A program made the position numbers and the translations under genes. A stretch of 32,000 bases of DNA from Candidatus Heimdallarchaeota archaeon (lineage in GTDB: Archaea > Asgardarchaeota > Heimdallarchaeia > JABLTI01): the NCBI GenBank assembly GCA_030614005.1, contig JAUWKS010000023.1, forward strand, positions 1 to 32,000, read 5' to 3'. Of this stretch, positions 10,331 to 24,848 are shown piece by piece (positions within the stretch are counted from its first letter, which is position 1; each line of letters begins with the position of its first letter). The notes beneath the pieces were generated by a model. It saw nothing but the letters and a program-made list of their open reading frames with translations, was not told the origin of the DNA and made no database searches.

Positions 10331-10562
10331 TGCATTCTCTCTTCTATGACACTCTTTATTACATTTTTTTAAGTGTTAATTCTCTTAATAAATCTACTAA
10401 TATATAAAATTAAATGTTTCTATTATATTAAATGCATAAATAAAGGAACATTTCAAGAACTTCTCACTTGATAATATACAAGCTCAAGTCAAAATATAAT
10501 CCAATTTCCTTTTAGATGATTATCTTAGTTATAAATAAGGCAACAAATTGGAGCTCAATAAA

Positions 10563-12224
10563 ATGTCTAACCCAGAAGATAATTTAGAAATTGACAATTC
10601 TAAAGAAAAATCTTCTCAAAACGAAAATAAAGACATTCTCATTTTGGAATCGGAAGAAAAGGGTGTAAGGATTTTTTTTAAAAAAACCTGGTTCTGGCTG
10701 AAAGAAAGTAAACAAAAAACCTTTTCTCTTGTATTTCTCTTGTTATTTATTGCATTTATGATTTTCTTGGGAGTATTCGAAAATGATCCAACTTCATTAA
10801 TGCTCGAGCTAGTTTATTGGTTTCAAGATAAAACAGGAGATATAGGGTTATACATTGGTGTAGGAGTTATCTCAATTTTTGGTAATTTTGTTATGTTTAT
10901 ACCAGTGTTCTATGCAGCTGTTATAATGTTTGTAGCAGTGATACCTGGGATAAATGTTTTTTTCCTTGGAATAGCAGCAGGAATTGGTGCTTCCATAGGA
11001 CAAATAGCTTCCTGGTTTGTAGGGAGAGCTACTCGAGAAGTAGCTGGAGATAAACTAGAAAAACAACTAAGAAAAACGCAAAGATGGGTTGAAAGAGGCT
11101 TGGCTCCAATAATGATTTTTATTTTTGCTGCAACTCCACTTCCGGATGAAGTATTGCTAATAATGATTGGCCTAATTGGTTATTCACTCGGAAAAACATT
11201 GATTTACTGTTTTATTGGAAAAATAGTTTTAACATTGAGTATATCTGTCGTTGCTAATCTTTTTAGTACAACTGCTGTGGGTGAATGGTTTCTTGAAACA
11301 CTTTTCGGTCTCACAAGAACAATGTTAATTGAGCAAGAATTGCCTGCTGGAAATAATATTTGGACGTCTATTGCAATTTGGATTATAGCTGCAACATTGG
11401 TTGTTGCAGTGACATTTGTTGATTGGGTGGATATATATGATAACTTTTTATGTAAAAAAGAGGAGAGACAGCTAAAACAAATTTTTGAAGTAGCTAAAGC
11501 ATCTTATAAATTGGATGATTCAGCAATTGTGCTCAATCACAAAGATAGGGCAATTTCAATACAACTATTAGAAGAACAAAAGCAAGAACATTTCCCGGAA
11601 GAGTCTCTTTGGTTCTTTCAAGAAAAATTATCAAAAAAGAAAGAAGTATTCTTTCGTAAAAGCCTCATAGCAATTGATACTATTGCAAATACAACAGTTG
11701 ATATTATTTTAAATAAAGAATGGTTAGAAAATTTCAGAGCGAATATTCAAGGCTTAAAATTTAAATCTTTGAAAAACAGATCAACGGAGCTCATTAAATT
11801 CCCACAAAAAGTGCTGGATATTGGGTTTATCGTATCAGAAAGTAGATTGATCGAGTTTCAAATTAAATTAAAGCACATTCTCCCTGAAGAAAATATGACA
11901 GATTTGTTGGATAAATCTAATTTTAAGAAACGAGAGAAACGACAATTAATGCGAGCAAAAGTCAATGTAGAAGTCTTAATTGAAACTTTATCTAGCAATG
12001 AAACAAAAGTTTGGGCGATTGGTTTAAAAGAAGGGACCCATATCAATAAAATCTACAAATTTAGAAAAGTAGAATCAATATTCTATTGGTTACAATTATT
12101 AAATTGTTTAAGCGATCAGCCAAGTAAAGTGAAAGGGTTATTAATTTTAAATTTGATTGATACATCAGGTGAAGATATCGAAATTACTACTCCAAAAGAT
12201 ATCTTAAATAATTGTCCGATTTGA
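10563..12224 (+). CDS. DedA/VTT (SNARE-associated) family membrane protein with long soluble C-terminal extension
   Basis: Multiple TM segments, GIGASIGQIASWFVGR, FIFAATPLPDEV and FIGK motifs. ATG 10563 follows GGAG; the track uses TTG 10548. Confidence 0.85.
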   Translation: MSNPEDNLEIDNSKEKSSQNENKDILILESEEKGVRIFFKKTWFWLKESKQKTFSLVFLLLFIAFMIFLGVFENDPTSLMLELVYWFQDKTGDIGLYIGVGVISIFGNFVMFIPVFYAAVIMFVAVIPGINVFFLGIAAGIGASIGQIASWFVGRATREVAGDKLEKQLRKTQRWVERGLAPIMIFIFAATPLPDEVLLIMIGLIGYSLGKTLIYCFIGKIVLTLSISVVANLFSTTAVGEWFLETLFGLTRTMLIEQELPAGNNIWTSIAIWIIAATLVVAVTFVDWVDIYDNFLCKKEERQLKQIFEVAKASYKLDDSAIVLNHKDRAISIQLLEEQKQEHFPEESLWFFQEKLSKKKEVFFRKSLIAIDTIANTTVDIILNKEWLENFRANIQGLKFKSLKNRSTELIKFPQKVLDIGFIVSESRLIEFQIKLKHILPEENMTDLLDKSNFKKREKRQLMRAKVNVEVLIETLSSNETKVWAIGLKEGTHINKIYKFRKVESIFYWLQLLNCLSDQPSKVKGLLILNLIDTSGEDIEITTPKDILNNCPI

Positions 12225-12366: not shown

Positions 12367-13149
12367 ATGAGTAAAAAAGAAGAACTTGATTATGAAATGC
12401 TAAATATCGAAGGCGTTTATGCTCTATTAGAAAGCAAATTATCTCGAGCGGAAGATCTCTTCAAGAAGGCATGCACTTTGGAGGAGAATTGCTTTGAAAG
12501 CAAGTGTAATCTAGGAAAATTATTTATTATCAAAGAAGATTTTGATGGTGCGATAAAATATTTTAAAGAATCATTAGAAATGAACCCAAAATTCATCGAA
12601 AGTTTACACAATATAGCAGTTGCATATTATAAATCAGGGAAATTAAAAGAGGCAATAAAATTCTACAAAGAAGCGCTCACAGTTGATGAAAATTATTTCC
12701 AAAGTTCATTTAACCTAGGAAACAGCTACTATCAGCTAGCTGATAAAGAAGAAGCAATAAAGTGGTACAAAAAATCTATTCAATCAAACAAAAGTTTTCT
12801 GGATGCACGATTCAATCTTGCAAACACTTACAGAGAAATCAAGCAAATTGATTTGGCAATAAAGACTTATGAAGATATATTAGTCACTTGGCAAAATGAT
12901 GCATCAGTTTTCTATAATTTAGCTTGTACGTATCATTTGCAAGAGAAATTGGATAAAGCAATTGAAAATTATCTCAAAGCTATAGAATTTAAAAAAGATT
13001 ATTTGAAAGCAATTATCAATTTGGGTTTAGCCTATGAGATGAAAGGTGAGCAAAAGAAAGCTTTAGAATATCTTGAAAAAGCATTTGAGATAAATCCAAA
13101 ATTAGATTTTGTTGTTGAAAAAATTAATGCTCTTAAGAAAGGAAAATGA
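12367..13149 (+). CDS. Tetratricopeptide repeat protein
   Basis: About 7 consecutive 34-aa repeats of the pattern NLG..Y...G....AI..Y..AL...P. Confidence 0.93.
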   Translation: MSKKEELDYEMLNIEGVYALLESKLSRAEDLFKKACTLEENCFESKCNLGKLFIIKEDFDGAIKYFKESLEMNPKFIESLHNIAVAYYKSGKLKEAIKFYKEALTVDENYFQSSFNLGNSYYQLADKEEAIKWYKKSIQSNKSFLDARFNLANTYREIKQIDLAIKTYEDILVTWQNDASVFYNLACTYHLQEKLDKAIENYLKAIEFKKDYLKAIINLGLAYEMKGEQKKALEYLEKAFEINPKLDFVVEKINALKKGK

Positions 13150-13289
13150 TTTTAATAAAAAAATTCAAGAAAAAAGAAATTTCTAATTAATAAATTCTAG
13201 AAAAGTGCTCATTTATATCTTTATTAAGAAAATAGTACAGTGTCTATCGACAATAACTACTGTAGCGTAAAAACTACTACTTAGAGACC

Positions 13290-13361
13290 TAGATTTTTTA
13301 GGGGTGCACCATCTCCAAAAATAGAACACCACTCATTTTCGTCTGGCACCCTTAAAATCTA
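13290..13361. repeat. Imperfect inverted repeat (16-bp stem with 2-nt bulge, 38-nt loop)
   Basis: TAGATTTTTTAGGGGTGC (13290-13307) pairs with GCACCCTTAAAATCTA (13346-13361). Confidence 0.6.
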
Positions 13362-13446
13362 CAAATTAAAGGTATCTTTATTCCAAAAGAGTAAAAAGCA
13401 TTCATTTAAACAAAGTAGTGTGAAATAATAAACAGGTTGTTAAGAA

Positions 13447-14115
13447 ATGAAAGTAACATGGTTAGGCCACGCGGGAATTATGATTGAAGATGAAGGAAAG
13501 ACAATTTTAATTGATCCTTGGTTAAATGGTAACCCCGTTGCAACAATGAAAGTGGAAGATATCAAGAAAGCAGATGCTGTTTTTGTTACCCATGATCACG
13601 GAGATCATGGTTACGCGGAAGCTGTAGAGATCTGTAAGAATACAGGTGCTACTTTTGTCAGTATTTTTGAATTAGCAAATAAAGCTCAAAGCGATGGAGT
13701 AAAAAATGTCTTAGGTGGTAATATTGGCGGAACTGCTGAGGTTGCTGGAATAAAATTTGTTTTCACCTTAGCACTCCATAGCTCGAATATCGGTCATCCT
13801 CTCGGTTTTGTAATCATGCTTCCAAGTATGACTGTTTATCACGCTGGAGACACTGGCATCTTTACAGATATGCAATTACTAGGTGAATTATACAATATTG
13901 ATCTTGCCTTCTTACCTATTGGAAGCCTATTCACCATGGGTCCAAAAGAAGCTGCAAAAGCACTACAATTACTTAATGTTCAAAAAGTAGTACCAATTCA
14001 CTACAAAACATTTCCGGTATTAGTTCAAGACCCCAAGGAATTTATTGATATTGCTGGAGATAAAATAGAGGTTCATGTATTAGAGCCTGGCACAGTAAAA
14101 GAAATCGGAAAATAA
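13447..14115 (+). CDS. Metal-dependent hydrolase, metallo-beta-lactamase fold (UPF0173-like)
   Basis: KVTWLGHAG, IDPWLNGNP, THDHGDH, YHAGDT, LPIG and PIHY. Confidence 0.93.
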   Translation: MKVTWLGHAGIMIEDEGKTILIDPWLNGNPVATMKVEDIKKADAVFVTHDHGDHGYAEAVEICKNTGATFVSIFELANKAQSDGVKNVLGGNIGGTAEVAGIKFVFTLALHSSNIGHPLGFVIMLPSMTVYHAGDTGIFTDMQLLGELYNIDLAFLPIGSLFTMGPKEAAKALQLLNVQKVVPIHYKTFPVLVQDPKEFIDIAGDKIEVHVLEPGTVKEIGK

Positions 14116-14240
14116 CCTTTTTTTCCTGTTTCATATTTTTTCTTTTCTATTGTCAAAAGTTGAAGGAATAATTAAAAAGGAGTAAATTTGGTAAAATATA
14201 GTAACGCTGTTAGATTTATTTGTAACTGCGAGGGATTCCA

Positions 14241-15521
14241 ATGAAGTGCGTTTATCATCCAATCGAAGAATCTGAAGAAAGATGTGCTATTTGTAACGTT
14301 CCTATCTGTAAAACTTGTGTAACAGAAGCAGAACTTGAAAATAGTGGTGCATGTCATGCTTGCACTCGACAAGGAAAAATCGGTAAATTTTATCAATACT
14401 TCCGAATAGCTTCTTGTGGGCTCGGAATTGCATGGTTAATTGCCGCAATGTTTATTTTTACCAGTGCGCCTAGCTTTTTTACGAAAATTTCATATGGTAT
14501 TTATGGTCTCTTAGGAGCTTTTGTACTTAATTTCCTCGCTGCTTTTGTTCTTACTCGAATAATGATTTCTGATCTTAAACCACACCAACGAGTTTTTGTT
14601 GGTTTATCTAGATATGCTATTACTGGAAGTAAAACATTCTTCAATCAAGCATTAAAGGCGATGAGTAAAGTTGAAGATATGTCCATATATAAAGATGCAA
14701 TGTTTGATCAAATTGTAACAGTTTTGATTCTTCAACCATATGATTTACCTTATGATTGGGTTGGTTTCTTAGCAACAAATTTCAAAATCACTGAGCAAGA
14801 GTTATTGGATGGTATATTAGAATTCGGAACAGATGTTTTTTATGAGAATATCTTTAATCATTACCATTATCAAGCTATGGAACCCTATATTGAAATTTTG
14901 AATCGCCAAGAAAGAGATGATCTTTACAATAAACTTCTTGATGATATCATTTTACGATTAAAAGATGTTGATTTAAAAGAAATAAACAAACCCCCTGAAT
15001 ATATTCCAGGGCAACCTGGCCAACCTAACACAATGAAAAAACAGGAACCAAAAATCATTCGTCAAAAAGCATTCCTTACACAGCTTACTATGATTGATGA
15101 AGAACTTGGTGAATTTCTCAAGCGAGTTGGTCGTGAAAAAGATCACAAGAAAATTCTCGAATTTACTGAAAATTACGAGTTGCCTGCAGTTCCAAAAAGC
15201 TCATTTGATGCTGTAAAAGCGCTTGCAAGAGGTCAACAACCACAACAAGGTCAACAACAACAAACACAACAAACTCGACAACAAATACCCACTTCTCCTC
15301 GAAGTGATTTAATTGCACCACCACAACAAAATGAAGAAGTAGAACCTGACGATACAGTCCAACTCAGAACCTGTGCAGAGTGTGGGGGATCTTTTCCAAA
15401 GCATGAATTATCTTCGTACACATACGAGAAACTTAAAGTCAAAGTATGTTCAAAATGCAATAAGGCTCTTGAAGCCGATGGCCACCGTGAACCTAAACTA
15501 CTTGCAAAGATGAACAAATAA
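14241..15521 (+). CDS. Membrane protein with N-terminal B-box-like zinc finger, two TM helices, Gln-rich segment and C-terminal zinc ribbon
   Basis: CVYHP...RCAICNVPICKTC...CHAC, two hydrophobic helices, QQPQQGQQQQTQQTRQQ and CAECG...VCSKC. Confidence 0.85.
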   Translation: MKCVYHPIEESEERCAICNVPICKTCVTEAELENSGACHACTRQGKIGKFYQYFRIASCGLGIAWLIAAMFIFTSAPSFFTKISYGIYGLLGAFVLNFLAAFVLTRIMISDLKPHQRVFVGLSRYAITGSKTFFNQALKAMSKVEDMSIYKDAMFDQIVTVLILQPYDLPYDWVGFLATNFKITEQELLDGILEFGTDVFYENIFNHYHYQAMEPYIEILNRQERDDLYNKLLDDIILRLKDVDLKEINKPPEYIPGQPGQPNTMKKQEPKIIRQKAFLTQLTMIDEELGEFLKRVGREKDHKKILEFTENYELPAVPKSSFDAVKALARGQQPQQGQQQQTQQTRQQIPTSPRSDLIAPPQQNEEVEPDDTVQLRTCAECGGSFPKHELSSYTYEKLKVKVCSKCNKALEADGHREPKLLAKMNK

Positions 15522-15643
15522 GGTCTAAATTGGCTTTTTTTGAAAGCAAATTAGCTTTCATTCTTTTCTTCTTTCTATTTATAAAGATAAAAAAATAGAA
15601 ACTCTATTATTTGACTTAATGTTATCATTATTGGGTATAGAAA

Positions 15644-16594
15644 ATGCGTCCTCCTTGTGAAATCGTAACTCAAAATCTTTTACCACTCATTCGTGGAATG
15701 GTTGCTCAAGAATTGATAAATCACATGACTCAGCAAGAAGTTGCTGAAAAAATGGGTGTGAGTCAACCAACAATAAGCAGTTATCTTAAATCCTTGGCTA
15801 CAATTCGTGCAGAAGGTGAGGAGGAATATCTCGAAAGTAATACTGTTAAGACTTTAGTAAATGATATTGTTGCTAGCACTATCAAAAATGCTTCTCCCGA
15901 AGAAATCATTAGAATGATCTGTTCTAGTTGTGTTAATCTTCGAATAAGTGGTTTAACCTGCAGAAAACATGTAAAAAGTTACCCAGGATTAACTGCTGGA
16001 TGCCAGGGATGTTTACCAATAACAGATGAAGTTTTAATCGAAAGTAGAAAGAAAGTTATTACAGAATTATTAGAAGCATTATCTTCGATGGAGCGAAAGG
16101 AGGATTTTGTAAAGATAATGCCTGAAGTATTGCTCAACATATGCAAATGCTTAACTGAACCAAAAACTATTGATGACATTGCTGCGTTTCCTGGAAGAAT
16201 AACTAAAATTCGAGGGAAAGCTCGTGCACTTCTTCCACCTGAATTTGGTGCATCAAAACACATAGCCCAAATACTGTTGACAATAAATGCTTGTTCTCCG
16301 TCTTTCAATAGTACAATTAACATAGTAAATAACAATAAAGTTCTTCGGATAATGGAGAATTTAGCTATAAAATATTATACTTTTCCAAATAGCGAATTTG
16401 TTAAATTATTCAAGGAGAAAAAGACGAAAAAAGCACAAGCAATATTATCAGAATTAATTGAGCCAGTGAAAGTAGGGGGAATCTTTGCAATTCTAAATTC
16501 AGGAGGTATTGGAATTGAACCGATTACCTATCTTTTTAGTAATTCTTTGCAAACCCTCATAGAAACTACATTCAAAATAGCAGATCGTCTGTAA
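15644..16594 (+). CDS. thiR: ThiR-like regulator: HTH + Cys-rich linker + ThiN (thiamine-phosphate synthase-like) domain
   Basis: HTH: MRPPCE...MTQQEVAEKMGVSQPTISSYL. ThiN: MPEVLLNI...DDIAAFPGRIT...PEFGASKHIA...GGIGIEP. Confidence 0.8.
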   Translation: MRPPCEIVTQNLLPLIRGMVAQELINHMTQQEVAEKMGVSQPTISSYLKSLATIRAEGEEEYLESNTVKTLVNDIVASTIKNASPEEIIRMICSSCVNLRISGLTCRKHVKSYPGLTAGCQGCLPITDEVLIESRKKVITELLEALSSMERKEDFVKIMPEVLLNICKCLTEPKTIDDIAAFPGRITKIRGKARALLPPEFGASKHIAQILLTINACSPSFNSTINIVNNNKVLRIMENLAIKYYTFPNSEFVKLFKEKKTKKAQAILSELIEPVKVGGIFAILNSGGIGIEPITYLFSNSLQTLIETTFKIADRL

Positions 16595-16730
16595 TTTAAG
16601 AATAAGTATTGAAGAAACCTTTTTTTAGAAAGACCTTCTAATCTTTTTTTAGTCTTGGATTTAGAAAAAATAAAAATGACTCTTTTCTAAATTCAATGTT
16701 TAGTAAAAATAGATTACGCGAGTGTAGACT

Positions 16731-19679
16731 ATGAAGAAAGGAACTATTCTAGGTTTAAGTCTTCTATCATTATTCATTTTATCCGCTGCTGGACCATCAT
16801 TAATAGCTAATATTGATGTATCTGCTTTTAGTACTATAGAGCCATCTTTGTATACTAAAGAAGTAATTGATAATAATGGAGATAAAATAGATGACAAATT
16901 GTTGAGTTCTACGGTTTTTACCAATGGATACTCAGATGAGATTGCTATCAAATTTAATCATAACATTGATTCTCTTGATTTGCAAAAACTGAATAATCTT
17001 GGTGCAATTTGCTCCAACGAGATTTGGGATGCAGGGACAAGAATAAGAATCACTGCAACAGAAGACTCACTTACTCAAATTGCAGAATTGGATGATGTTA
17101 CATTTATCACAACAGCAGAAATAAGACTTATTATGGTTGCTATTGTGGGAACTGATTTCTCAGACTTGACAGCATTATTAACTTATGAAAACAGTGAGAT
17201 ATTCTGGGAAACAGGTTGTGCCTTAGTGCCTTATTATTCTGGTGTTGAAAATGATATCAAAAGTCTTGGTGCCTATACAGCAATAGCTGATACAACAGAC
17301 ATTTACTATACATTAGATACTATTGAAAATGATGCTGACTATTCTTTTTCTCCTGATACTTTAACAAATGCAAACACAATCAATGCAACTCAATTAGTTT
17401 CAGCTGGGTTTGATGGAGGCGGAGTAAAGGTTGGAATTCTTGATACCGGTATCCGATCAAGTCATGTTGATTTAATTGGTAGAGTTGGTAAAAAACAAAG
17501 TTTCGTTTTAACAACTTATGGATATGATTATTCTGATACATCCAATGATGATTTTGTAGGACATGGAACCCATGTTGCTGGTATAGTTGGTGGAGATGGA
17601 ACAGGTAATTCTCAAAGAATAGGTATTGCTCCTTCAGTAACATTTTATGCAGCAAAAATTGGTGATCATCAAGAAGATGGTGCACCCGCAACACTCGCTT
17701 CAATGGTTGCTGGTGCAAACTGGCTTGCTGCACAAGGTGCTGATGTTATCAATATGAGTTTTGGAGCAGGTGGAGAACCAAACGTCAATATTCTAGAAGC
17801 TGCTATTGCAAATGTCGTTAATAATAAAGGTATCAAATTTGTTCATTCAAATGGCAACGAAGGAGAAAATGGTGTTTATTCCACAGATTCCCCAACTGCA
17901 GCTATTTCTGTAGGTGCAGCAGATGACTCTTCGTTCCCCTTAGATATGGCTTATTTCTCATCTCAAGGTCCAAATGCTGACAATACAATGAAACCAGATT
18001 TAATTGCCCCTGGTTATGATATTTTATCTTGCAGTCATCTTTCAGATAGTAGTTATGTTTTAAAAAGTGGAACTTCTATGTCCGCGCCACAAATTGCTGG
18101 TGCAGCTGCTTTATTGGTTGATGTCTGTAAAACAGAAGGTATCTCATACAATCCTGGAGCAATTAAAAGTGCTTTGATGAGTACATCCGATCCATTACCA
18201 TCATCTACATTTGATTACCTAATTCAGGGTAGAGGTATGGCTAATGTTGGTGCTGCAGCAACTTTGTTAATAAATGCTGACCAAGAAGGCACTCTCCCAA
18301 TCATTGGTGCTTTAAATCCACTTATGAATCCAGTTTCAATTTATGCTGAATTGCTTCAAGGTCAAGTGATTGAACAATTTGTAACTTGTGTATCTCCTTT
18401 TAGAGATGACAATTTAACATTGGAAGTCACAGGTGATGCCGCAGATTTATTAGTATTAGACGAAGTTACTAATTTCTATTCAGCAACTGCAAGAGTAACC
18501 TATACGATTCCGGTAGAAACTGCACCTGGTACATACGAAGGAGAATTTACTTTCAAATACAAAGGTACCGTATTGGATATTGTTGATATTGAAATTACTG
18601 TTGTTCCAAGTCATGGTGAACATAGAATGCTTCTAAATTATCGAACTACCGACTGGATGATCGATCACATGTATGGTCAATATAAACACTTTACCGCTGA
18701 TTTAATAGCAAGAGGATGGGTTATCAGTGAACAAAGTGTTGTCCTTACTGCTGATATACTAAGTGATTATGAAGCAGTCTGGTTCCCAGATCCATTCAGC
18801 ATTCGTTTTAATGATGCAATGGTAAGTTCTACCTATAATCCTCTATCTACAGCTGAATTAACAGTATTAGATAATTTTGTAACTGCTGGTGGAAGTGTTT
18901 TCATTGATTTCAATGGAAATGCCTATGATGAAGAAAACTCAGTAATTTATGGAACAAATGTAACTCACGTCAATGAATTTACAGAAAATTATGGTATACA
19001 TGTTAGAGATGATATTTGGGGTTCACCTTCAACAATCATTGTAAACCCAGTAGGCAGTCATGCTCTCACTGCTGGAGTTACAGGGGTAGATCATTATGGA
19101 TGTACTTTAGAAACATCTGGTGATGCTGTTCAAGTCACTGAAATTTCTGCTGGATCACAGTATTCCACTCTTGCATATTACCAAGCTTCTTCTGGTGGTA
19201 GAGTAATTGTTATGTCAACAAACTTCGCACTAGATACAGATGGTTATAAAAACAAATACAGTGGAAGTGGTACACAGAACGATATTTTCGGTCGAAATCT
19301 TGTCCGATGGGCAACAGCAGAACATCGAATTAAACAATACAATTACACTTTCACTGCTGGAACAATGAACATGACTTACGAATACATAGGCGGTCCTGGT
19401 GCAGACTTTGGTGGATATGTTATCACACCTGATGAAACCCGTCACAACCTTACTTGGGTAGAATTATCCAGTGGTATGTGGTCATTCACTTATAATTGTG
19501 AAACCCTTGGTACCTATCATTTCTATCCTGAATGTGGAGAAACTGGTGTTGACGAATTTGATTACCTACTCTTTGAGTGCATTGAAACGTTTAAGAGTGG
19601 ATTTACACCAATAATTCTAATTTCAATTAGTATTTTAGGATTAGCCGGTAGTTATCTCATTTCAAGACGAAAGAAGTAA
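16731..19679 (+). CDS. Secreted, C-terminally membrane-anchored S8 subtilase with Ig-like and GATase-like C-terminal domains
   Basis: Signal peptide; catalytic D238 (ILDTG, 17442), H278 (HGTHVAG, 17562) and S449 (GTSMSAP, 18075); oxyanion NGNEG; C-terminal TM followed by RRKK. Confidence 0.95.
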   Translation: MKKGTILGLSLLSLFILSAAGPSLIANIDVSAFSTIEPSLYTKEVIDNNGDKIDDKLLSSTVFTNGYSDEIAIKFNHNIDSLDLQKLNNLGAICSNEIWDAGTRIRITATEDSLTQIAELDDVTFITTAEIRLIMVAIVGTDFSDLTALLTYENSEIFWETGCALVPYYSGVENDIKSLGAYTAIADTTDIYYTLDTIENDADYSFSPDTLTNANTINATQLVSAGFDGGGVKVGILDTGIRSSHVDLIGRVGKKQSFVLTTYGYDYSDTSNDDFVGHGTHVAGIVGGDGTGNSQRIGIAPSVTFYAAKIGDHQEDGAPATLASMVAGANWLAAQGADVINMSFGAGGEPNVNILEAAIANVVNNKGIKFVHSNGNEGENGVYSTDSPTAAISVGAADDSSFPLDMAYFSSQGPNADNTMKPDLIAPGYDILSCSHLSDSSYVLKSGTSMSAPQIAGAAALLVDVCKTEGISYNPGAIKSALMSTSDPLPSSTFDYLIQGRGMANVGAAATLLINADQEGTLPIIGALNPLMNPVSIYAELLQGQVIEQFVTCVSPFRDDNLTLEVTGDAADLLVLDEVTNFYSATARVTYTIPVETAPGTYEGEFTFKYKGTVLDIVDIEITVVPSHGEHRMLLNYRTTDWMIDHMYGQYKHFTADLIARGWVISEQSVVLTADILSDYEAVWFPDPFSIRFNDAMVSSTYNPLSTAELTVLDNFVTAGGSVFIDFNGNAYDEENSVIYGTNVTHVNEFTENYGIHVRDDIWGSPSTIIVNPVGSHALTAGVTGVDHYGCTLETSGDAVQVTEISAGSQYSTLAYYQASSGGRVIVMSTNFALDTDGYKNKYSGSGTQNDIFGRNLVRWATAEHRIKQYNYTFTAGTMNMTYEYIGGPGADFGGYVITPDETRHNLTWVELSSGMWSFTYNCETLGTYHFYPECGETGVDEFDYLLFECIETFKSGFTPIILISISILGLAGSYLISRRKK

Positions 19680-19687
19680 ACTTTGAT

Positions 19688-19713
19688 GCGAAACGAGTAA
19701 GCTCGTATTTCGC
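19688..19713 (+). terminator. Stem-loop plus T-tract terminator after the S8 gene
   Basis: GCGAAACGAG-taag-CTCG(ta)TTTCGC followed by a long T-rich run. Confidence 0.65.
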
Positions 19714-19870
19714 TTTTCTTTCCTTTTTTTTCTATTTTTTTATTCTTTTAATTAGAGAGGAGACCATTTGCCGCAATTGAAAGTTTTTTACATCAACCAT
19801 AGGACTTAATAAATAAGTTGTTAAAATAAATTTGACAAACATTTAACGTCATAATAACATTTGTAGAAAA

Positions 19871-20254
19871 ATGAATGATGGAGATACCAAGTTGACATTT
19901 GAATCAGAAGCTGCAAGATTACAGAATGATGGTGTAGTAGGAGCGCTCGCTTTAGTAGGGGCTGATGGTGCTGTCCATTGGCAAACACAGAATTGGCAAG
20001 TAGATGGACCATCCATGATTGATTCATGGACAAAAAAAGCGCCTTGGATTGTAATACAAGGAATAAAATATTCAACAATAGACATTACAAATAGTCGAAT
20101 GATTTGTACTAACACCCAACAGCAAGGACATATAGTTATTGCAAAAACTCCATTCTGGCAAGGTTTCGTGATGGCGTGGTGTTCACCTGCTCATCAAGTT
20201 AGATCTGCCTACGTTGATATTGCTCGTTTAGCATCTGAAGTGAAACCTGGTTAA
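19871..20254 (+). CDS. Asgard-type profilin
   Basis: 127 aa. ALVGADGAVHWQTQNWQVDG...WIVIQGIKYS...RMICTNTQQQGHIV...AYVDIARLA matches the Asgard profilin pattern. Confidence 0.88.
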   Translation: MNDGDTKLTFESEAARLQNDGVVGALALVGADGAVHWQTQNWQVDGPSMIDSWTKKAPWIVIQGIKYSTIDITNSRMICTNTQQQGHIVIAKTPFWQGFVMAWCSPAHQVRSAYVDIARLASEVKPG

Positions 20255-20320
20255 TCATAAAACCAACATTCACTTTTTACTTATTTTAAATAATATTAAA
20301 AACCTTTTTTTTCTTCTTTC

Positions 20321-23300
20321 TTAATTATCTTGTCCAAAAATATTTGGATTTGAGAATATTTCTGTGGCGGTAATATATACAGTTCCTTTCTCTACTACTT
20401 GGATTCTCGAAAGATCAATACCTGTAACAATCATTTTTGAAAGATAATGCCCGTATTCTGCTAATGTTTGTATTTTTCTTCCTACAACGAGTGTTTTCAA
20501 AATATTATGTGGACATAATGAATCTCGTAACTCTACTCCAATGCTTCCGATTACTGAGTCTGAAATATCTGTCATAATTTGTTTTTCCACAGTTGCATTT
20601 GTGAAAAGTCCAACCATTTCTCGAGATAATTTTTCAGAGATGAGAAGAACAGGTTTATCTGATAATGAAATTCCCAAACAGGTTCCCAAATGTCGACCAT
20701 TTGTTGTTCGTACACGTAAGCATTCAATTGGAATTACTTCAGAAGGATGGAAAACTCGTGCTGAATTTTTCAAAGTAACTTTGTTTCTCTTGATACTATT
20801 GATGGATCCACCTGAAATAAATACTCTATAAGAGTTGAGAATTTCATGGGGAAGTATCGGAAAACCTCTTTGTAATGAATAGTTAATCAATGTCTTTGGT
20901 TTGAGAGCTTCGCCTTCTGGAAGGCGCAACTGCTTAGCAATGAGATATTTCAATAACCAAAGTCGTTCTGTTGGATCATCTTCAGAGATATTTAATCTCT
21001 GAACTAAATAATTGACAATTGATTTATCTGGTTGCTTTGTATCTACTAGAAAAATTTTCCCCATAAGTGGATGTTTCACTGAAGCAATGATTGTACCAAA
21101 TGAAATTCCATGATGAAATAGACAATTTTTACCTATCGGATTATTATCTTCATCATCGAAATCTTTAGCTAACCATGGAGCAGTTCTGTATGGTTTTTGT
21201 GGTAAAATCTCGTCTAAATTACAAATAATTGATCCTCTTTTTATTCTTATCTTATTGATTGGTACTAAGCCGAGAATTTCTGGCTTTCCAATTTTATCAG
21301 AGCTAGGGTAACTGATATTTCTAAAATTAGCGAATTCTTGTAACTTTGAAATGTGTAAAGCTACATCTCTTTCTATCTGTAATGAATCAACTACTTCCTG
21401 AATAACAAAGATTTTTCGTTTTGTCGCTGATTCCAATAGCTCTTCCGTAACCCAAAGTGGTTTGATTTGATCAAATATTTTATCAATAATTACTTGATCT
21501 CCAATAGGCTCTGTTACCAATGTATACCCGAGTTTATTTTTATCATAAACAACTGCTTCTTGTAAGTAACCATAAAATTCGCGTGAACCATCATCTTTTA
21601 GATTAAATAGAGCTTTCCCTGTTAATTTCCATGCTTCAGTAGCTGCTTCCAATAATTTTTCTGAAATCATAGACGTTTTTTGTGGTTTTACCAGATTTTC
21701 TTCGATAATTTGGCGAGAAGGACTTTTTACTTCTCCAGTTTCTTGTGGAGTTTGTATTGGTGGTGAAGCTTCCTCTACTGAAGAAGCAGTTAAGGGCGTG
21801 GAACTTACATCTACATCCGGAATTGATGGTATCTCTGCAATAGCATCTATAGGTTTACTTGCTGGAATTTCTGTCTCAGTGGTTTCTATTGCATCTAATT
21901 CATCTGGTTGCAAAGCATTGATTTCTTTTACTTCAGTTATTTCACCAAATGTTTCACCTATTTCTTGAGCTTCAATAATGCGTTCAGAATCAATTTTTGC
22001 AGGTTTTGTAATATCAGAAGTTTTTCGTTTTTCTACTTCCTCTGCTAAACTTGAGAAGGTTACTTTTGTTATTACTTGTTTGCTTTGTGTTTTTTGCACT
22101 TCTTTTGGTTTTGGTAGTTCTTCAACTTCCTTAACTTCCTTTGAATCCAAAAGTTTAGTTAGAAATTCTTCAAAAGAGTTGAGAATAACTTTTTCGGTTA
22201 ACTCGTTCATCCTTTTTGGTGAACCTTTAATATTATATTGTAAATTAAAATCTTCCATACCAACAATTTCTAAATCAATATCAGGAGTAATTGTTAATTG
22301 AGGTGTTTGAGGTATGCGTAATTTTGCATCTATTTCTTCCGATTCAAAAGGTATTTCATCTTCTTCACTAGTATCTTCAATATCTAATGTATCAATTAAA
22401 AAGAAAGTATTTTCAAACTTTTCTTCCTCAATTGACAAAGTTTCAATGAGTGGATCAGTTGCTATTTCAGAAGCTGCAATTTTGCTTTCATCTGCCGAAT
22501 GAGATGAATGGGCACTTGCACTAGAATCAACTTCAATCCCAAATTGATCTTCAACAAATAATTCGTGTGATTCATCCATTTTTAAATGGTCTTTATCTAA
22601 ACGACATAAACAATTATTGTAATTTTTAATATCCTTAGTTAATAATTTAATATAATCAAGAAGCTCATTTATTGTTTGTTGAAATTCGCGTAACTTTTTG
22701 AAATCAGGAAGAGAACCGATTTTTGATGAGGAACGAATTTCTAATTGAGTTGCTTTAAGTGTTGCAAGTAACTCTGCTAAGGCATCACGATATTTATTTC
22801 TTAAATTAATTTCTTTCTTTAAATCTGTAGAGATAGTTGATAATTCAGCATCGTTTGCAACACCATGACCATAAGAGAACTGCAAGAAGTTTTGCAAAGT
22901 AAATTTAAGTAGATAACCTTTTGATGGATTTCGTTTCAGATATTTCTCTCGAGCACCAAACCGATTTCTGGCTAATCTGAGATCATATTCTAATGTTTCT
23001 AGTTTTCTGGCAGCCGAATCTTGATTTACTTTTTTCTCAGCTAATAAAATTTTTATTTTGTGCATATCATGCTCTAATTTCTTAACATTCCTCTCTAATT
23101 CACTAATTTCTCTACGAATTTTAAGATGTCTAAAGAATGTTCGAGGAACTTTATAGTTGGGTATTAAGTCTTCAATTGATATTTTGCCAATTAAACTATT
23201 AGCACTCAGAGGGATTTCCTTTGTATCTATTGCTTCTCGTAATTCTTCGTCTGTTAGTGCAGTTGCTTGTTGAAATTGTTGTTCTAATACTTGTATTTTA

Positions 23301-23398
23301 GTTTCGAAAACTTCAGAATCAATTTTCTCAAGAGCGTATTGCTTTTCGATTTCCATTATATCTTTAAGAATTTTAATCCTGGAGTTCATATGTTTCAT
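20321..23398 (-). CDS. Large protein: N-terminal coiled coil, acidic low-complexity linker, three tandem PRC-barrel-like repeats; start uncertain (ATG 23398/23389; track TTG 23509)
   Basis: Long ORF with heptad-rich N-terminus. Repeats begin LTGKALF...YGYLQE, PIGKNCLF..GISFGTI and ECLRVRTTNGRHLGTC, and end VPINKIRIK, ISGGSINSIK and IDLSRIQVVE. Confidence 0.85.
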   Translation of the reverse strand: MKHMNSRIKILKDIMEIEKQYALEKIDSEVFETKIQVLEQQFQQATALTDEELREAIDTKEIPLSANSLIGKISIEDLIPNYKVPRTFFRHLKIRREISELERNVKKLEHDMHKIKILLAEKKVNQDSAARKLETLEYDLRLARNRFGAREKYLKRNPSKGYLLKFTLQNFLQFSYGHGVANDAELSTISTDLKKEINLRNKYRDALAELLATLKATQLEIRSSSKIGSLPDFKKLREFQQTINELLDYIKLLTKDIKNYNNCLCRLDKDHLKMDESHELFVEDQFGIEVDSSASAHSSHSADESKIAASEIATDPLIETLSIEEEKFENTFFLIDTLDIEDTSEEDEIPFESEEIDAKLRIPQTPQLTITPDIDLEIVGMEDFNLQYNIKGSPKRMNELTEKVILNSFEEFLTKLLDSKEVKEVEELPKPKEVQKTQSKQVITKVTFSSLAEEVEKRKTSDITKPAKIDSERIIEAQEIGETFGEITEVKEINALQPDELDAIETTETEIPASKPIDAIAEIPSIPDVDVSSTPLTASSVEEASPPIQTPQETGEVKSPSRQIIEENLVKPQKTSMISEKLLEAATEAWKLTGKALFNLKDDGSREFYGYLQEAVVYDKNKLGYTLVTEPIGDQVIIDKIFDQIKPLWVTEELLESATKRKIFVIQEVVDSLQIERDVALHISKLQEFANFRNISYPSSDKIGKPEILGLVPINKIRIKRGSIICNLDEILPQKPYRTAPWLAKDFDDEDNNPIGKNCLFHHGISFGTIIASVKHPLMGKIFLVDTKQPDKSIVNYLVQRLNISEDDPTERLWLLKYLIAKQLRLPEGEALKPKTLINYSLQRGFPILPHEILNSYRVFISGGSINSIKRNKVTLKNSARVFHPSEVIPIECLRVRTTNGRHLGTCLGISLSDKPVLLISEKLSREMVGLFTNATVEKQIMTDISDSVIGSIGVELRDSLCPHNILKTLVVGRKIQTLAEYGHYLSKMIVTGIDLSRIQVVEKGTVYITATEIFSNPNIFGQDN

Positions 23399-23586
23399 TT
23401 CCCAGTGTCTTTTATTATTATTATTATCTTGTTCTTTATGCTTTAATAAATCTAACATATTGAATTTAATGTTCACAGCATATTTACTATTATATGAGTC
23501 TTTCAGCAAGCTCAGAAAATAATTAAATAAGATAAAGGTTTTTTAATATCCCATATTAATTTAGTAACTCTTTTGGTTTGAAAAAT

Positions 23587-24351
23587 ATGAGCTTCATTGA
23601 ATGGTACAATAATTATCAAGATTGGATAATGCTTGTGTGCATGATTGTTGTTTTAGTAGTTATCCTTGCTGTGTTCTATTTGTTAAGCAAAAAGGGAATG
23701 GATGTTTTTTTTACACGAAAAGGAGTTCACATTTCTGGAGGATGTTATTCCTTCTTTTGGCTTATGGCTTCTGATAATAGTTGGGCAAGATGGGTTGGTG
23801 CAATCTTACCATTTGTTACAGCAATCATTTTCTTGTTTATTGGGTTGAAAGTTATACCTGGTCGTTTTATGGTAGATAGCATGTCCCGAACAGGCGAGCC
23901 ATTTGATTTAATTAAAGGAACTCTATTTTATGCATTAGTAATGACTTTGCTTTGTATCTTTATTTGGAAAGATCAACCATGGGGTTTGATCATTATTATG
24001 ACCATTGCTTGGGGAGATGGTATAGCTCCAATAGCAGGTAGATATTTTGGAAAACATAAGTATCGCACTATTGGTGGAGTAGAAAAATCTCTAGAAGGGA
24101 GCATTGCTATGTTCATTTTTTCTGTAGCTTTCAGTTATCTCATTGTCTTTTTATTCGGTTTTGTTCATGGAGAGAATTGGTTATTTGGAGCAATTTATCC
24201 CTGGCTCTGGGGGAAAATACTCATACTAGCATTTGCTGCTACAATAGCAGAAGGTTTAAGCCCGACAGATTTTGATAATCTGACTGTTCCAATAGTTATG
24301 GTTTTAATTTCTTGGGCAATGGGACTTCAATGGTTAAATCCCTTATTATAA
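23587..24351 (+). CDS. CTP-dependent prenol kinase family (phytol/farnesol/dolichol kinase-like) membrane protein
   Basis: RKGVHISGG, AWGDGIAPIAGRYFGKHKY, KSLEGS and DFDNL. Confidence 0.9.
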   Translation: MSFIEWYNNYQDWIMLVCMIVVLVVILAVFYLLSKKGMDVFFTRKGVHISGGCYSFFWLMASDNSWARWVGAILPFVTAIIFLFIGLKVIPGRFMVDSMSRTGEPFDLIKGTLFYALVMTLLCIFIWKDQPWGLIIIMTIAWGDGIAPIAGRYFGKHKYRTIGGVEKSLEGSIAMFIFSVAFSYLIVFLFGFVHGENWLFGAIYPWLWGKILILAFAATIAEGLSPTDFDNLTVPIVMVLISWAMGLQWLNPLL

Positions 24352-24362
24352 AAAAAGGAGAA

Positions 24363-24848
24363 TCATTGAAGATTCTCTATAATATAAAGTAACTCTTCTT
24401 CGAGTGTTTCTTTGTGTTCTGGATTTTCAATCATTTCTCCTACTTGAACGCCCTCTGAATTAAGTATATAGAAGGTTGGAATTTTGCGAAGATCAAAATC
24501 ATCTACTTCGGGAGGTGATGGTGGAACTCTCCATCTGATATCAGGATCTAAAGGTGCAGTCTTTATACCTCCGAAAAAGATTACATCAATATCAGGTTGC
24601 TTTTCCAAAATTTTTGCTAATGCTGCAACATTCGTTTTGCAATCTTTACACCAAACAGCAGAAAAAACAACAAAAGTGTATCCCTTAGCTTTTTCAGCAA
24701 GAGCTGCAATTACATCCTCTTTTGGTTCATATGATTCACAGTTGGTTTTTATTTCTTCACCACTCTTTCCTTCTAAACAACTCATATAATCATCGACTGA
24801 TTTACCATTTTTCTTAAGTTGAGCTAAATCGTGTTTTTGTTTTACCAT
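24363..24848 (-). CDS. Thioredoxin-family protein
   Basis: FSAVWCKDC active site and IPTFYI...GEMIENP. Confidence 0.9.
   Translation of the reverse strand: MVKQKHDLAQLKKNGKSVDDYMSCLEGKSGEEIKTNCESYEPKEDVIAALAEKAKGYTFVVFSAVWCKDCKTNVAALAKILEKQPDIDVIFFGGIKTAPLDPDIRWRVPPSPPEVDDFDLRKIPTFYILNSEGVQVGEMIENPEHKETLEEELLYIIENLQ

What the first reader, a model, noticed from the sequence alone, without database searches (positions are those of the whole stretch)
16731..19679. Membrane-anchored subtilase with a Site-1 protease (MBTPS1/SKI-1)-like architecture
Domain order is signal peptide, prodomain, S8, Ig-like, GATase-like alpha/beta domain, TM, basic tail. After the catalytic Ser it has NPGAIKSAL and QGRG, and later DWMIDHMYGQYKHFTADLIARGW (from 18651) and GTNVTHVNEFT. 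From memory these parallel human S1P NPASMKQAL, QGHG, DWNGDH...LRSMGY and GANIPALNELL. Established: S1P initiates regulated intramembrane proteolysis of SREBP and ATF6. Inference: an Asgard relative of the S1P ancestor, possibly processing surface or membrane proteins.
Basis: partly seen in the sequence, partly recalled or inferred. Interest (0 to 1): 0.75.

Follow-up and report, generated by a model that had tools for sequence, protein, structure and literature searches.

The report
Asgard membrane subtilase built like S1P
This Asgard archaeal gene encodes an apparently active, membrane-anchored subtilisin-type protease whose outer part has the same three-domain build as the eukaryotic site-1 protease, which suggests, but does not prove, that this body plan is older than eukaryotes.

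Summary
ORF 16731-19679 (+) encodes a 982-aa protein. Its order is signal peptide, two tandem propeptide units, intact S8 domain (D238/H278/N376/S449), beta-sandwich, GIFT domain, extra Ig-like stalk domain, TM helix and SRRKK tail. All quoted motifs lie where stated.

Human S1P is the top PDB hit for the whole AlphaFold model. It is the only solved chain spanning all three domains (593 residues, rmsd 3.4 A). S1P orthologues fill the top five Swiss-Prot places. The post-S8 module folded alone again finds S1P first.

A profile of 80 diverse relatives aligns to S1P in one stretch through S8, beta-sandwich and GIFT (290 bits). The module occurs in 297 of 300 Asgard genomes sampled. Nearly all named relatives are Asgard.

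Three points do not support descent. The S8 domain is closer in sequence to Tk-SP and subtilisin than to S1P. The GIFT domain scores as well against IFT52. No tree with eukaryotic S1P could be built. The propeptide junction has no RxxL-type site, and a role in regulated intramembrane proteolysis is untested.

This scan found the same family before on other DNA, including a paralogue in this genome.

The parts
16731..19679 (+). Whole gene: 982-aa membrane-anchored S1P-like subtilase (P0001), stop codon included
   Evidence: ORF list and translation. Orthologues of about 985 aa occur in Heimdall-group MAGs.
16731..16802 (+). N-terminal signal peptide or signal anchor (aa 1 to about 24: MKK, a hydrophobic run, then SAAG)
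   Evidence: Read directly from the sequence. The model shows a helix at aa 2-27 followed by a low-confidence linker. The cleavage site is inferred.
16908..17114 (+). Prodomain unit 1 (aa ~60-128), beta-alpha-beta-beta-alpha-beta
   Evidence: Secondary structure of the model. Swiss-Prot S1P models align from query residues 56-61 onwards.
17115..17300 (+). Prodomain unit 2 (aa 129-190), I9/subtilisin-propeptide-like; it ends in the conserved D-T-T-D-x-x-hydrophobic motif
   Evidence: Pro-subtilisin E and pro-Tk-subtilisin structures align from model residue 130. Junction alignment.
17349..18275 (+). S8 catalytic domain (aa 207-515) with D238, H278, oxyanion N376 and S449
   Evidence: Pfam Peptidase_S8, E 4e-46. 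The four residues are invariant in 36 close relatives and in 80 distant ones. Z is about 40 to subtilisins.
18276..18605 (+). P-like beta-sandwich (aa 516-625)
   Evidence: Models. It aligns to S1P residues 480 onwards, the S1P P-like subdomain 479-616 defined in PMC11231238.
18606..19325 (+). GIFT (GATase1-like alpha/beta) domain (aa 626-865); contains the DWMIDH and GTNVTHVNEFT motifs
   Evidence: Profile A3 against PDB: S1P 6e-16 and IFT52 GIFT 9e-16. VIA: IFT52 Z 23.4, OST48 Z 19.5. Pfam GIFT-type families hit below their cut-offs.
19326..19580 (+). Membrane-proximal Ig-like beta-sandwich (aa 866-950)
   Evidence: Seven or eight strands at pLDDT above 90 in the model. Weak filamin-type profile hits at this position.
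19602..19676 (+). C-terminal TM helix (aa 958-977) and basic tail SRRKK (aa 978-982)
   Evidence: Sequence and coordinates. Helix at aa 959-981 in the model. The same type of tail occurs in most of the 150 listed relatives.

Best explanation
The gene encodes a type-I membrane-anchored ecto-protease of an Asgard (Heimdall-group) archaeon. It belongs to an old, multi-paralogue family found across the phylum, whose mature part (S8 catalytic domain, P-like beta-sandwich, GIFT domain) has the same body plan and inter-domain packing as eukaryotic site-1 protease (S1P/MBTPS1).

Shown here: an intact catalytic tetrad; the domain order; rigid-body superposition on S1P; one continuous profile alignment to S1P; near-universal presence in Asgard genomes.

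Inferred: the protein is exported by its signal peptide. It folds with the help of its tandem propeptide and cuts the propeptide off itself after the conserved DTTD-x-x-hydrophobic segment. It then stays tethered by the C-terminal helix, with the Ig-like domain acting as a stalk. The GIFT domain packs on the S8 loops that carry the oxyanion Asn, as described for S1P.

The most likely job is housekeeping cleavage (maturation, trimming or shedding) of proteins at the cell surface, at a fixed height above the membrane. The shared architecture most likely reflects common descent of the three-domain module. This protein is not an orthologue of S1P with S1P's specificity or its signalling role.
For: Intact S8 domain: Pfam E 4e-46. 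D238, H278, N376 and S449 are invariant in 36 close relatives and in 80 distant ones.

Whole model (pLDDT 85, pTM 0.77, no templates):
- Foldseek against PDB puts S1P 9csd_A and 8uw8_A first (E 4e-35, 752 columns, TM by target 0.66); the next hit, Vpr, is at 1e-27.
- VIA-align gives 8uw8_A Z 42 with 593 residues aligned at rmsd 3.4 A, model 207-945 against chain 190-877. It is the only chain that spans all three domains.
- In Swiss-Prot AFDB the top five hits are all S1P orthologues, from Arabidopsis SBT6.1 at 9e-38 to human at 9e-35.

Post-S8 module alone (pLDDT 95):
- S1P is first by Foldseek (3.8e-15, against IFT52 at 3e-10).
- S1P is the only chain covering both domains (313 residues aligned, model 10-354 against S1P 480-877).
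- In the ESM Atlas, eukaryotic MBTPS1 clusters are the best two-domain matches (TM 0.71-0.72).

Sequence level: profile A3 hits S1P at 6e-16. Profile A4 aligns S1P 193-853 as one stretch, 290 bits.

Distribution: the P-like+GIFT module is in 297 of 300 Asgard genomes and in 70 of 70 genera. All but two source names are Asgard or the old 'Korarchaeota' label for Njord. This genome has three S8+GIFT paralogues.

S1P domain definitions and the GIFT-oxyanion loop contact come from PMC11231238.
Against: The S8 domain is not specially close to S1P. Tk-SP scores 312 bits and BPN' 261 bits on S8 alone. S1P scores 290 bits over all three domains, so roughly 229 on S8 by my estimate.

The GIFT domain is generic by sequence. 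IFT52 scores as well as S1P. Pfam IFT52_GIFT and ABC_transp_aux hit more members than MBTPS1_4th does. This protein reaches only 11.9 bits on MBTPS1_4th, whose cut-off is 27. The reverse Pfam search finds nothing in this genome. The narrow-clade profile A2 does not find S1P at all.

The propeptide junction has no basic RxxL/K-type site.

No tree with eukaryotic sequences was made. Function, topology and autoprocessing are all inferred. The inter-domain packing is predicted, not solved.
Confidence: 0.65

Rival explanations
1. Convergent assembly. S8, a beta-sandwich and a GIFT domain were joined independently in Asgard archaea and in the eukaryotic stem, so the likeness to S1P reflects shared domain types and not descent of the whole module.
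For: By sequence the GIFT domain is as near to IFT52 as to S1P, and it is nearer to the IFT52 and GldG-type Pfam models than to MBTPS1_4th. Structurally the GIFT part alone is closest to IFT52 (Z 23.4, rmsd 2.3 A). The S8 domain is nearest to Tk-SP, which already carries a C-terminal beta-sandwich. Bacterial clusters join other catalytic domains (M28 peptidase, GH88) to a beta-sandwich plus GIFT-like module.
Against: One continuous HMM alignment runs through all three domains. 593 residues superpose as a rigid body, so the inter-domain packing is the same. S1P is the only PDB chain that matches the two-domain post-S8 module. The S8+P-like+GIFT combination was seen only in Asgard archaea and eukaryotes. 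The family is universal in the phylum from which eukaryotes are thought to derive.
Confidence: 0.2
2. Same protein, different job: a nutritional surface protease that degrades environmental proteins to peptides for uptake, with broad subtilisin-like specificity, rather than a specific processing enzyme.
For: The S8 domain is most like the broad-specificity enzymes Tk-SP and subtilisin. The propeptide junction offers hydrophobic residues, not a dibasic or RxxL site. There are several paralogues per genome. From general knowledge, many Asgard archaea are predicted or shown to ferment peptides and amino acids.
Against: The family is near-universal (297 of 300 genomes). Each paralogue is kept separately at 45-50% identity with conserved synteny. 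That pattern fits housekeeping roles better than scavenging enzymes, which tend to be patchy. A membrane tether with a fixed stalk limits reach to substrates near the cell surface. No peptide or oligopeptide transporter lies beside the gene in this window.
Confidence: 0.3
3. A true functional analogue of S1P: it makes the first, extracytoplasmic cut in a membrane-bound regulator, which an S2P-type M50 protease then cleaves within the membrane (regulated intramembrane proteolysis).
For: S1P-like architecture. Three M50 (S2P-family) genes are in this genome. One orthologue locus has an M50-PDZ gene about 6.5 kb upstream.
Against: M50 proteases occur in all 14 control genomes, so their presence says nothing. 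The M50 neighbour is absent from the other four orthologue loci. No substrate candidate was identified. No RxxL-type autoprocessing site is present. In bacteria, site-1 cleavage is done by unrelated proteases.
Confidence: 0.1
4. The Asgard genes were acquired from eukaryotes by horizontal transfer.
For: None specific. It would explain the shared architecture.
Against: The module is present in 297 of 300 Asgard genomes and in all 70 genera sampled, with deep paralogues. The S8 domain is closer to archaeal Tk-SP than to S1P. S1P's GIFT domain carries long insertions that the archaeal proteins lack (alignments).
Confidence: 0.03

Closest known systems
Eukaryotic site-1 protease (S1P / SKI-1 / MBTPS1; plant SBT6.1; PDB 8UW8, 8UWC, 9CSD)
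   Same: The order is signal peptide, long prodomain, S8A domain, P-like beta-sandwich, GIFT domain, single TM and short basic tail. 593 residues superpose at rmsd 3.4 A. The profile alignment is continuous over S1P 193-853. Motifs are shared after the catalytic Ser (NP..[IM]K.AL, QG.G) and in the GIFT domain (DW..DH, G.N[IV]..[LV]NE[LF]).
   Different: Structure-based identity is only 13-20%. Pfam MBTPS1_3rd and MBTPS1_4th are not reached. There are no RxxL/K autoprocessing sites. The prodomain has two I9-like units. An extra Ig-like stalk domain is present. S1P's long GIFT insertions are absent. No SPRING-type cofactor, SREBP or ATF6 substrates are known in archaea. The S8 domain is closer to Tk-SP and subtilisin.
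Tk-SP of Thermococcus kodakarensis (PDB 3AFG, 9UES) and related pyrolysin/Vpr-type S8A subtilases
   Same: It is the best sequence match for the S8 domain (312 bits; Z 43). It is an archaeal S8A enzyme with a propeptide and a beta-sandwich after the catalytic domain.
   Different: Tk-SP has no GIFT domain, no C-terminal membrane anchor and a single propeptide. It lacks the short insertion before the 'NP..K.AL' helix that S1P and this family share.
GIFT domains of IFT52, OST48/DDOST and bacterial GldG / ABC_transp_aux proteins
   Same: The alpha/beta domain at aa 626-865 is a canonical GIFT fold: IFT52 Z 23.4 with 204 residues aligned at rmsd 2.3 A, OST48 Z 19.5. The family profile hits IFT52 at 9e-16.
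   Different: Those proteins carry no protease domain. Here the GIFT domain is fused to, and predicted to pack against, an S8 domain.
Other Asgard S8-GIFT proteins noted earlier in this scan, including a paralogue in this genome and a degenerate-protease subunit of a Thorarchaeota ABC operon
   Same: The same S8 + beta-sandwich + GIFT family. The paralogue on contig C69 is 49% identical over 914 residues.
   Different: This copy has an intact catalytic tetrad and stands alone as its own gene in a different, conserved neighbourhood (profilin downstream), not in an ABC operon.

Membership tests
Peptidase S8 (subtilase), subfamily S8A | Asp-His-Ser triad in that order, plus the oxyanion Asn, within a domain that passes Pfam's cut-off | tested here: met
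   PF00082 scores 158 bits against a cut-off of 21.8. D238, H278, N376 and S449 are invariant in alignments A1 and A4.
Site-1 protease (S1P/MBTPS1) | P-like beta-sandwich directly after S8, superposable on S1P 479-616 | tested here: met
   Model residues 10-354 of the post-S8 module align to S1P 480-877, with 313 residues aligned and Z 19.2. Foldseek puts S1P first at 3.8e-15.
Site-1 protease (S1P/MBTPS1) | GIFT domain after the P-like domain, packed on the S8 domain | tested here: met
   593 residues of S8+P-like+GIFT superpose on 8uw8_A at rmsd 3.4 A. Profile A3 hits the S1P GIFT domain at 6e-16. The packing comes from a predicted model (pTM 0.77).
Site-1 protease (S1P/MBTPS1) | Type-I topology: signal peptide, one C-terminal TM helix, short basic cytosolic tail | tested here: met
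   Read from the sequence: hydrophobic N-terminus, TM at aa 958-977, tail SRRKK. This is a prediction only.
Site-1 protease (S1P/MBTPS1) | Matches to the S1P-specific Pfam models MBTPS1_3rd (PF23094) and MBTPS1_4th (PF23090) above their cut-offs | tested here: not met
   MBTPS1_4th scores 11.9 bits against a cut-off of 27, and MBTPS1_3rd is not reported. There is no match in this genome. Some other Asgard lineages do pass: 8 of 101 genomes, against 0 of 14 controls.
Site-1 protease (S1P/MBTPS1) | S8 domain groups with S1P rather than with other S8A subtilases | tested here: inconclusive
   By profile score Tk-SP (312 bits) and BPN' (261 bits) exceed the S8 share of S1P, which I estimate at about 229 bits. 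No tree could be made because eukaryotic S1P sequences were not obtainable with the tools.
Site-1 protease (S1P/MBTPS1) | Autoprocessing and substrate sites of the type R-x-(hydrophobic)-(L/K) | tested here: not met
   The propeptide/S8 junction in 36 relatives is D-[TV]-T-D-x-x-hydrophobic followed by a variable linker, with no conserved basic residue. The S1P P4-pocket residues (D218, Q282, S307; PMC11231238) map to generic subtilase positions or to a variable loop, so specificity cannot be read from them.
Site-1 protease (S1P/MBTPS1) | Acts upstream of S2P on membrane-bound transcription factors, and is licensed by SPRING | not testable with these tools
   M50 genes exist in the genome but are universal. 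No substrate or cofactor was identified.
GIFT domain (IFT52 / GldG / OST48 type) | GATase1-like alpha/beta fold with sequence similarity to GIFT models | tested here: met
   IFT52 gives Z 23.4. The family profile hits IFT52 at 9e-16. Pfam IFT52_GIFT hits 34 of 106 members, best E 4e-14, though this protein itself is below the cut-off (18 bits against 27.2).

The most novel reading that the evidence does not exclude
The S8 + P-like + GIFT + TM protease was already present in the Asgard ancestor of eukaryotes and was inherited vertically as S1P. If so, the first enzyme of the SREBP/ATF6 regulated-proteolysis pathway is a eukaryotic signature protein of archaeal origin. The Asgard GIFT domains would then be the nearest prokaryotic kin of the GIFT domains of S1P, and possibly of IFT52 and OST48.
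Probability: 0.5. Interest if true: 0.8.

Novelty: new variant of a known kind. Interest (0 to 1): 0.62.

Why it matters
S1P starts regulated intramembrane proteolysis of SREBP, ATF6 and related factors in the Golgi. Its GIFT and P-like domains were defined structurally only in 2024, and its origin has not been traced.

A family with the same body plan, present in nearly every Asgard genome sampled, would add a secretory-pathway protease to the list of eukaryotic features with archaeal roots. It would also give a simpler, SPRING-free model for asking what the GIFT domain does for a subtilase. The question becomes testable by phylogeny and by biochemistry in cultured Asgard archaea.

None of my five searches of the open literature pairing Asgard with S1P terms (site-1 protease, MBTPS1, GIFT domain, SREBP, subtilisin) found a paper describing such a family.

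If the likeness proves convergent, or the enzyme proves to be a feeding protease, this is just one more multidomain archaeal subtilase.

Tried and rejected
- Single-sequence PDB search with the post-S8 part gave only antibody noise.
- The narrow-clade profile A2 found IFT52 weakly and did not find S1P. Only the broad profiles A3 and A4 reach S1P.
- I tried to bring eukaryotic S1P sequences into the session for a tree. A test of that 130-residue region against PDB showed that single sequences cannot see S1P at all. I judged that ordinary subtilases would crowd S1P out of the candidate list.
- The search for related loci in genomes used a single peptide pattern. It returned only 12 Heimdall-group loci, so it says nothing about other phyla.
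- Distribution outside Asgard could not be surveyed with the genome search, because no centre outside the phylum was available. It rests on source names and on AFDB and Atlas taxa.
- Reading specificity from the S1P P4-pocket residues was uninformative.
I therefore could not inspect the GIFT/S8 interface, or which propeptide residues sit in the active site.
- ESM feature search put a eukaryotic MBTPS1 cluster first, but at a score of 0.85, which is only a lead.
Full report
**What is there.** The window holds an uninterrupted ORF at 16731-19679 on the + strand, encoding 982 residues. Pfam finds one confident domain, Peptidase_S8 at residues 229-493 (E 4e-46). Only sub-threshold hits to GIFT-type families fall at about 640-765: ABC_transp_aux, IFT52_GIFT and MBTPS1_4th (E 0.15). 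The catalytic Asp238, His278, oxyanion Asn376 and Ser449 are invariant in 36 close relatives and in 80 distant ones. The enzyme therefore looks active.

**Anatomy.** An AlphaFold2 model built on 36 relatives, without templates, has pLDDT 85 and pTM 0.77. It shows these parts in order:
- an N-terminal hydrophobic helix (signal peptide);
- two tandem beta-alpha-beta-beta-alpha-beta propeptide units (aa ~60-128 and 129-190);
- a disordered linker;
- the S8 domain (aa 207-515);
- a beta-sandwich (aa 516-625);
- an alpha/beta domain (aa 626-865);
- a second beta-sandwich (aa 866-950);
- a TM helix (aa 958-977) and the tail SRRKK.

It is incomplete only for the doubled propeptide and the membrane-proximal Ig-like domain.

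**Comparison with S1P, whole protein.**
- Foldseek against PDB ranks the two S1P-SPRING entries first (9csd_A and 8uw8_A; E 4e-35 and 3e-34; about 752 columns; TM by target 0.66). The next subtilase, Vpr, is seven orders of magnitude behind.
- VIA-align aligns 593 residues of 8uw8_A at rmsd 3.4 A, model 207-945 against chain 190-877. Every other high-Z chain covers at most the propeptide, the S8 domain and the neighbouring beta-sandwich, with none reaching the GIFT domain.
- In Swiss-Prot AFDB the five best hits are Arabidopsis SBT6.1 and the hamster, mouse, rat and human MBTPS1 (9e-38 to 9e-35; query 56-862). Vpr follows at 5e-28.
- In the AFDB clusters, the matches with long coverage and TM near 0.5 include entries named MBTPS1 and archaeal S8 proteins. 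Bacterial T9SS-type subtilases score TM of about 0.3.
- The S1P paper (PMC11231238) defines S1P as prodomain, S8, P-like subdomain 479-616 and GIFT subdomain 617-998. It describes the GIFT domain as buttressing the loops that carry the oxyanion Asn.

**Comparison with S1P, C-terminal module alone.** I folded residues 515-880 on an alignment of 106 diverse relatives (pLDDT 95).
- Foldseek again puts S1P first (3.8e-15, 429 columns), ahead of IFT52 (3e-10).
- An exhaustive VIA search of 48,161 chains shows S1P as the only chain covering both domains: 313 residues aligned, model 10-354 against S1P 480-877, Z 19.2.
- The GIFT part on its own is nearest to IFT52 (Z 23.4, rmsd 2.3 A) and OST48 (Z 19.5).
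- In the ESM Atlas the best two-domain matches are eukaryotic clusters carrying Peptidase_S8 + MBTPS1_3rd + MBTPS1_4th (TM 0.71-0.72, 315-319 residues aligned).

The C-terminal domains do superpose on S1P.

**Sequence-level link.**
- The protein alone, and a profile of its own clade, do not detect S1P beyond the S8 domain.
- A profile of the post-S8 region from 106 diverse family members does. S1P is the top PDB hit (6e-16), aligned from the end of the P-like domain through the GIFT core. IFT52 is practically tied at 9e-16.
- A profile from the S8 start to the GIFT end (80 sequences) aligns S1P 193-853 as one unbroken stretch of 290 bits.
- S1P and the family also share a short insertion before the 'NP..K.AL' helix that Tk-SP lacks.

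**What does not point to S1P.**
- On S8 alone, Thermococcus Tk-SP (312 bits) and subtilisin BPN' (261 bits) outscore S1P. I estimate the S8 share of S1P at about 229 bits, by subtracting its 61-bit GIFT score.
- Structure-based identity is 36-38% to subtilisins and about 20% to S1P.
- Across the family, Pfam IFT52_GIFT (34 of 106 members, best 4e-14) and ABC_transp_aux (28 members) hit more often than MBTPS1_4th (7 members, best 2.6e-7).
- The reverse search with the eukaryote-derived MBTPS1_4th model finds 14 of 101 Asgard genomes, 8 of them over the cut-off, and 0 of 14 control genomes. It finds nothing in this genome.
- The propeptide/S8 junction is a conserved D-[TV]-T-D-x-x-hydrophobic segment followed by a variable linker. 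It carries no basic RxxL/K-type site like S1P's B and C sites.
- The S1P residues that hold the P4 Arg (D218, Q282, S307) map to generic subtilase positions or to a variable loop. Specificity cannot be read from them.

**Family and distribution.**
- A word-index search found 44 close relatives of about 985 aa. All but one of the names their sources give are Heimdall-, Thor-, Gerd- or 'Asgard group' archaea.
- An exhaustive profile search of 1.84 billion representatives found 285 proteins. Most of the 150 listed are about 1,000 aa long, with S8 motifs and a C-terminal TM helix plus basic tail.
- Apart from generic functional labels, the source names among 30 sampled are Heimdall, Hodarchaeum, Thor, Njord and 'Korarchaeota', which I take to be the older label for Njord. 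One short fragment is labelled Latescibacterota and one close relative Bathyarchaeia.
- In 300 genomes spread over the window's phylum, 297 carry the P-like+GIFT module at E <= 1e-10. That includes 90 of 90 high-quality genomes and 70 of 70 genera, usually with several copies.
- This genome has three S8+GIFT genes: this one, a 987-aa paralogue 49% identical on contig C69, and a 734-aa form on C85. It also has a GIFT-only ORF.
- Another Heimdall MAG carries both long paralogues, so the duplication is old.
- Most distant members have a single propeptide, with S8 starting at residues 110-170. The doubled propeptide marks this clade.

**Surroundings.**
- Upstream is an HTH-ThiN gene. Downstream, after a hairpin and T-runs, is a profilin-like gene.
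- Then follows a convergent ORF of 1,062 aa without a Pfam match, and a thioredoxin_9 gene.
- This block is kept in four of five orthologue loci at 46-85% protein identity. The block is TPR, metallo-beta-lactamase fold, a roughly 415-aa protein, sometimes ThiN, the protease, profilin, the giant ORF, a 254-aa ORF, then thioredoxin_9.
- The block is not kept in the fifth locus, which has an M50-PDZ gene 6.5 kb upstream and an Arf-like GTPase downstream.
- Nothing in the block suggests a substrate. M50 (S2P-family) genes exist in this genome (three) but also in all 14 control genomes.

**Interpretation.** I consider three things shown. This is an intact S8A subtilase. It has the S1P body plan, including the predicted inter-domain packing. 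It belongs to a core Asgard family.

Common descent of the three-domain module with S1P is inferred. The grounds are as follows:
- the alignment is continuous through all three domains;
- the fit is that of a rigid body;
- the combination was seen only in Asgard archaea and eukaryotes;
- the family is universal in that phylum.

I put this at roughly 0.5 to 0.6. Convergent assembly remains possible, at about 0.2, because each domain on its own has nearer relatives elsewhere.

For function I favour housekeeping processing or shedding of surface proteins by a tethered, self-activating ecto-protease. A feeding protease is the main rival. An S1P-like signalling role is the least supported.

**Earlier notes.** This scan had already flagged the same family in other genomes and on another contig of this genome, with the same overall verdict. 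My tests agree. They add the module-only fold searches, the continuous S1P profile alignment, the phylum-wide count, the reverse Pfam search and the synteny.

Noticed in passing
window 12367-24848; loci L020, L021, L022, L024: A gene block is conserved in four of five orthologue loci at 46-85% protease identity. The order is TPR protein, MBL-fold protein, a roughly 415-aa membrane protein, (HTH-ThiN), S1P-like protease, profilin-like protein, a convergent ORF of about 1,020-1,060 aa, a 254-aa ORF, thioredoxin_9. Whether this reflects function or slow gene-order decay is open.
   Followed up: partly
window 19871-20254 (+): A 127-aa ORF directly downstream matches Pfam Profilin below the cut-off (E 2.8e-4, 21.4 bits against 25). 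A 120-125-aa ORF holds the same position in four orthologue loci.
   Followed up: partly
window 19680-19740: Just after the stop codon lies a GC-containing hairpin (GCGAAA...TTTCGC type) followed by long T-runs. It looks like a terminator, so the protease gene is probably its own transcription unit.
   Followed up: no
G000 contigs C69:38415-39884, C85:16143-17144, C54:35834-36316 (loci L013, L015, L016): This genome has two further S8+GIFT genes, of 987 aa (49% identical) and 734 aa. It also has a 342-aa ORF with a GIFT-type match only.
   Followed up: partly
L023:1-480 and 13238-13780: In one distant orthologue locus, an M50 peptidase with PDZ domains (S2P-like) lies about 6.5 kb upstream of the protease, and an Arf-family small GTPase lies about 3 kb downstream. 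Neither is seen in the other four loci.
   Followed up: no
proteins P0169, P0175, P0178, P0180: Some distant family members do not end in a short basic tail. They end in CxxC-containing acidic tails (such as ...CLKCG... and ...CLSCG...), possibly cytoplasmic zinc ribbons behind the membrane anchor. That could hint at signalling variants.
   Followed up: no
one search matches, e.g. G075:C1:1260158-1261189, G124:C12:16402-17436, G205:C22:28176-29270: One Asgard family (f11) carries many anchorless S8+P-like+GIFT ORFs of about 660 aa. Several profile matches there include one to three in-frame stop codons (TGA or TAG). These may be matches running past the ORF end, or broken copies.
   Followed up: no
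ESM Atlas rows 4 and 8: Bacterial clusters (Bacteroidota GH88-type, Chloroflexota M28 peptidase) match 244-270 residues of the beta-sandwich + GIFT module. GIFT-like modules are therefore also joined to other catalytic domains in bacteria.
   Followed up: no
window 10548-12224 (+): A 558-aa ORF carries a VTT/DedA-type domain (PF09335, 34.4 bits, just over the cut-off). It is conserved at the same relative position in two orthologue loci.
   Followed up: no
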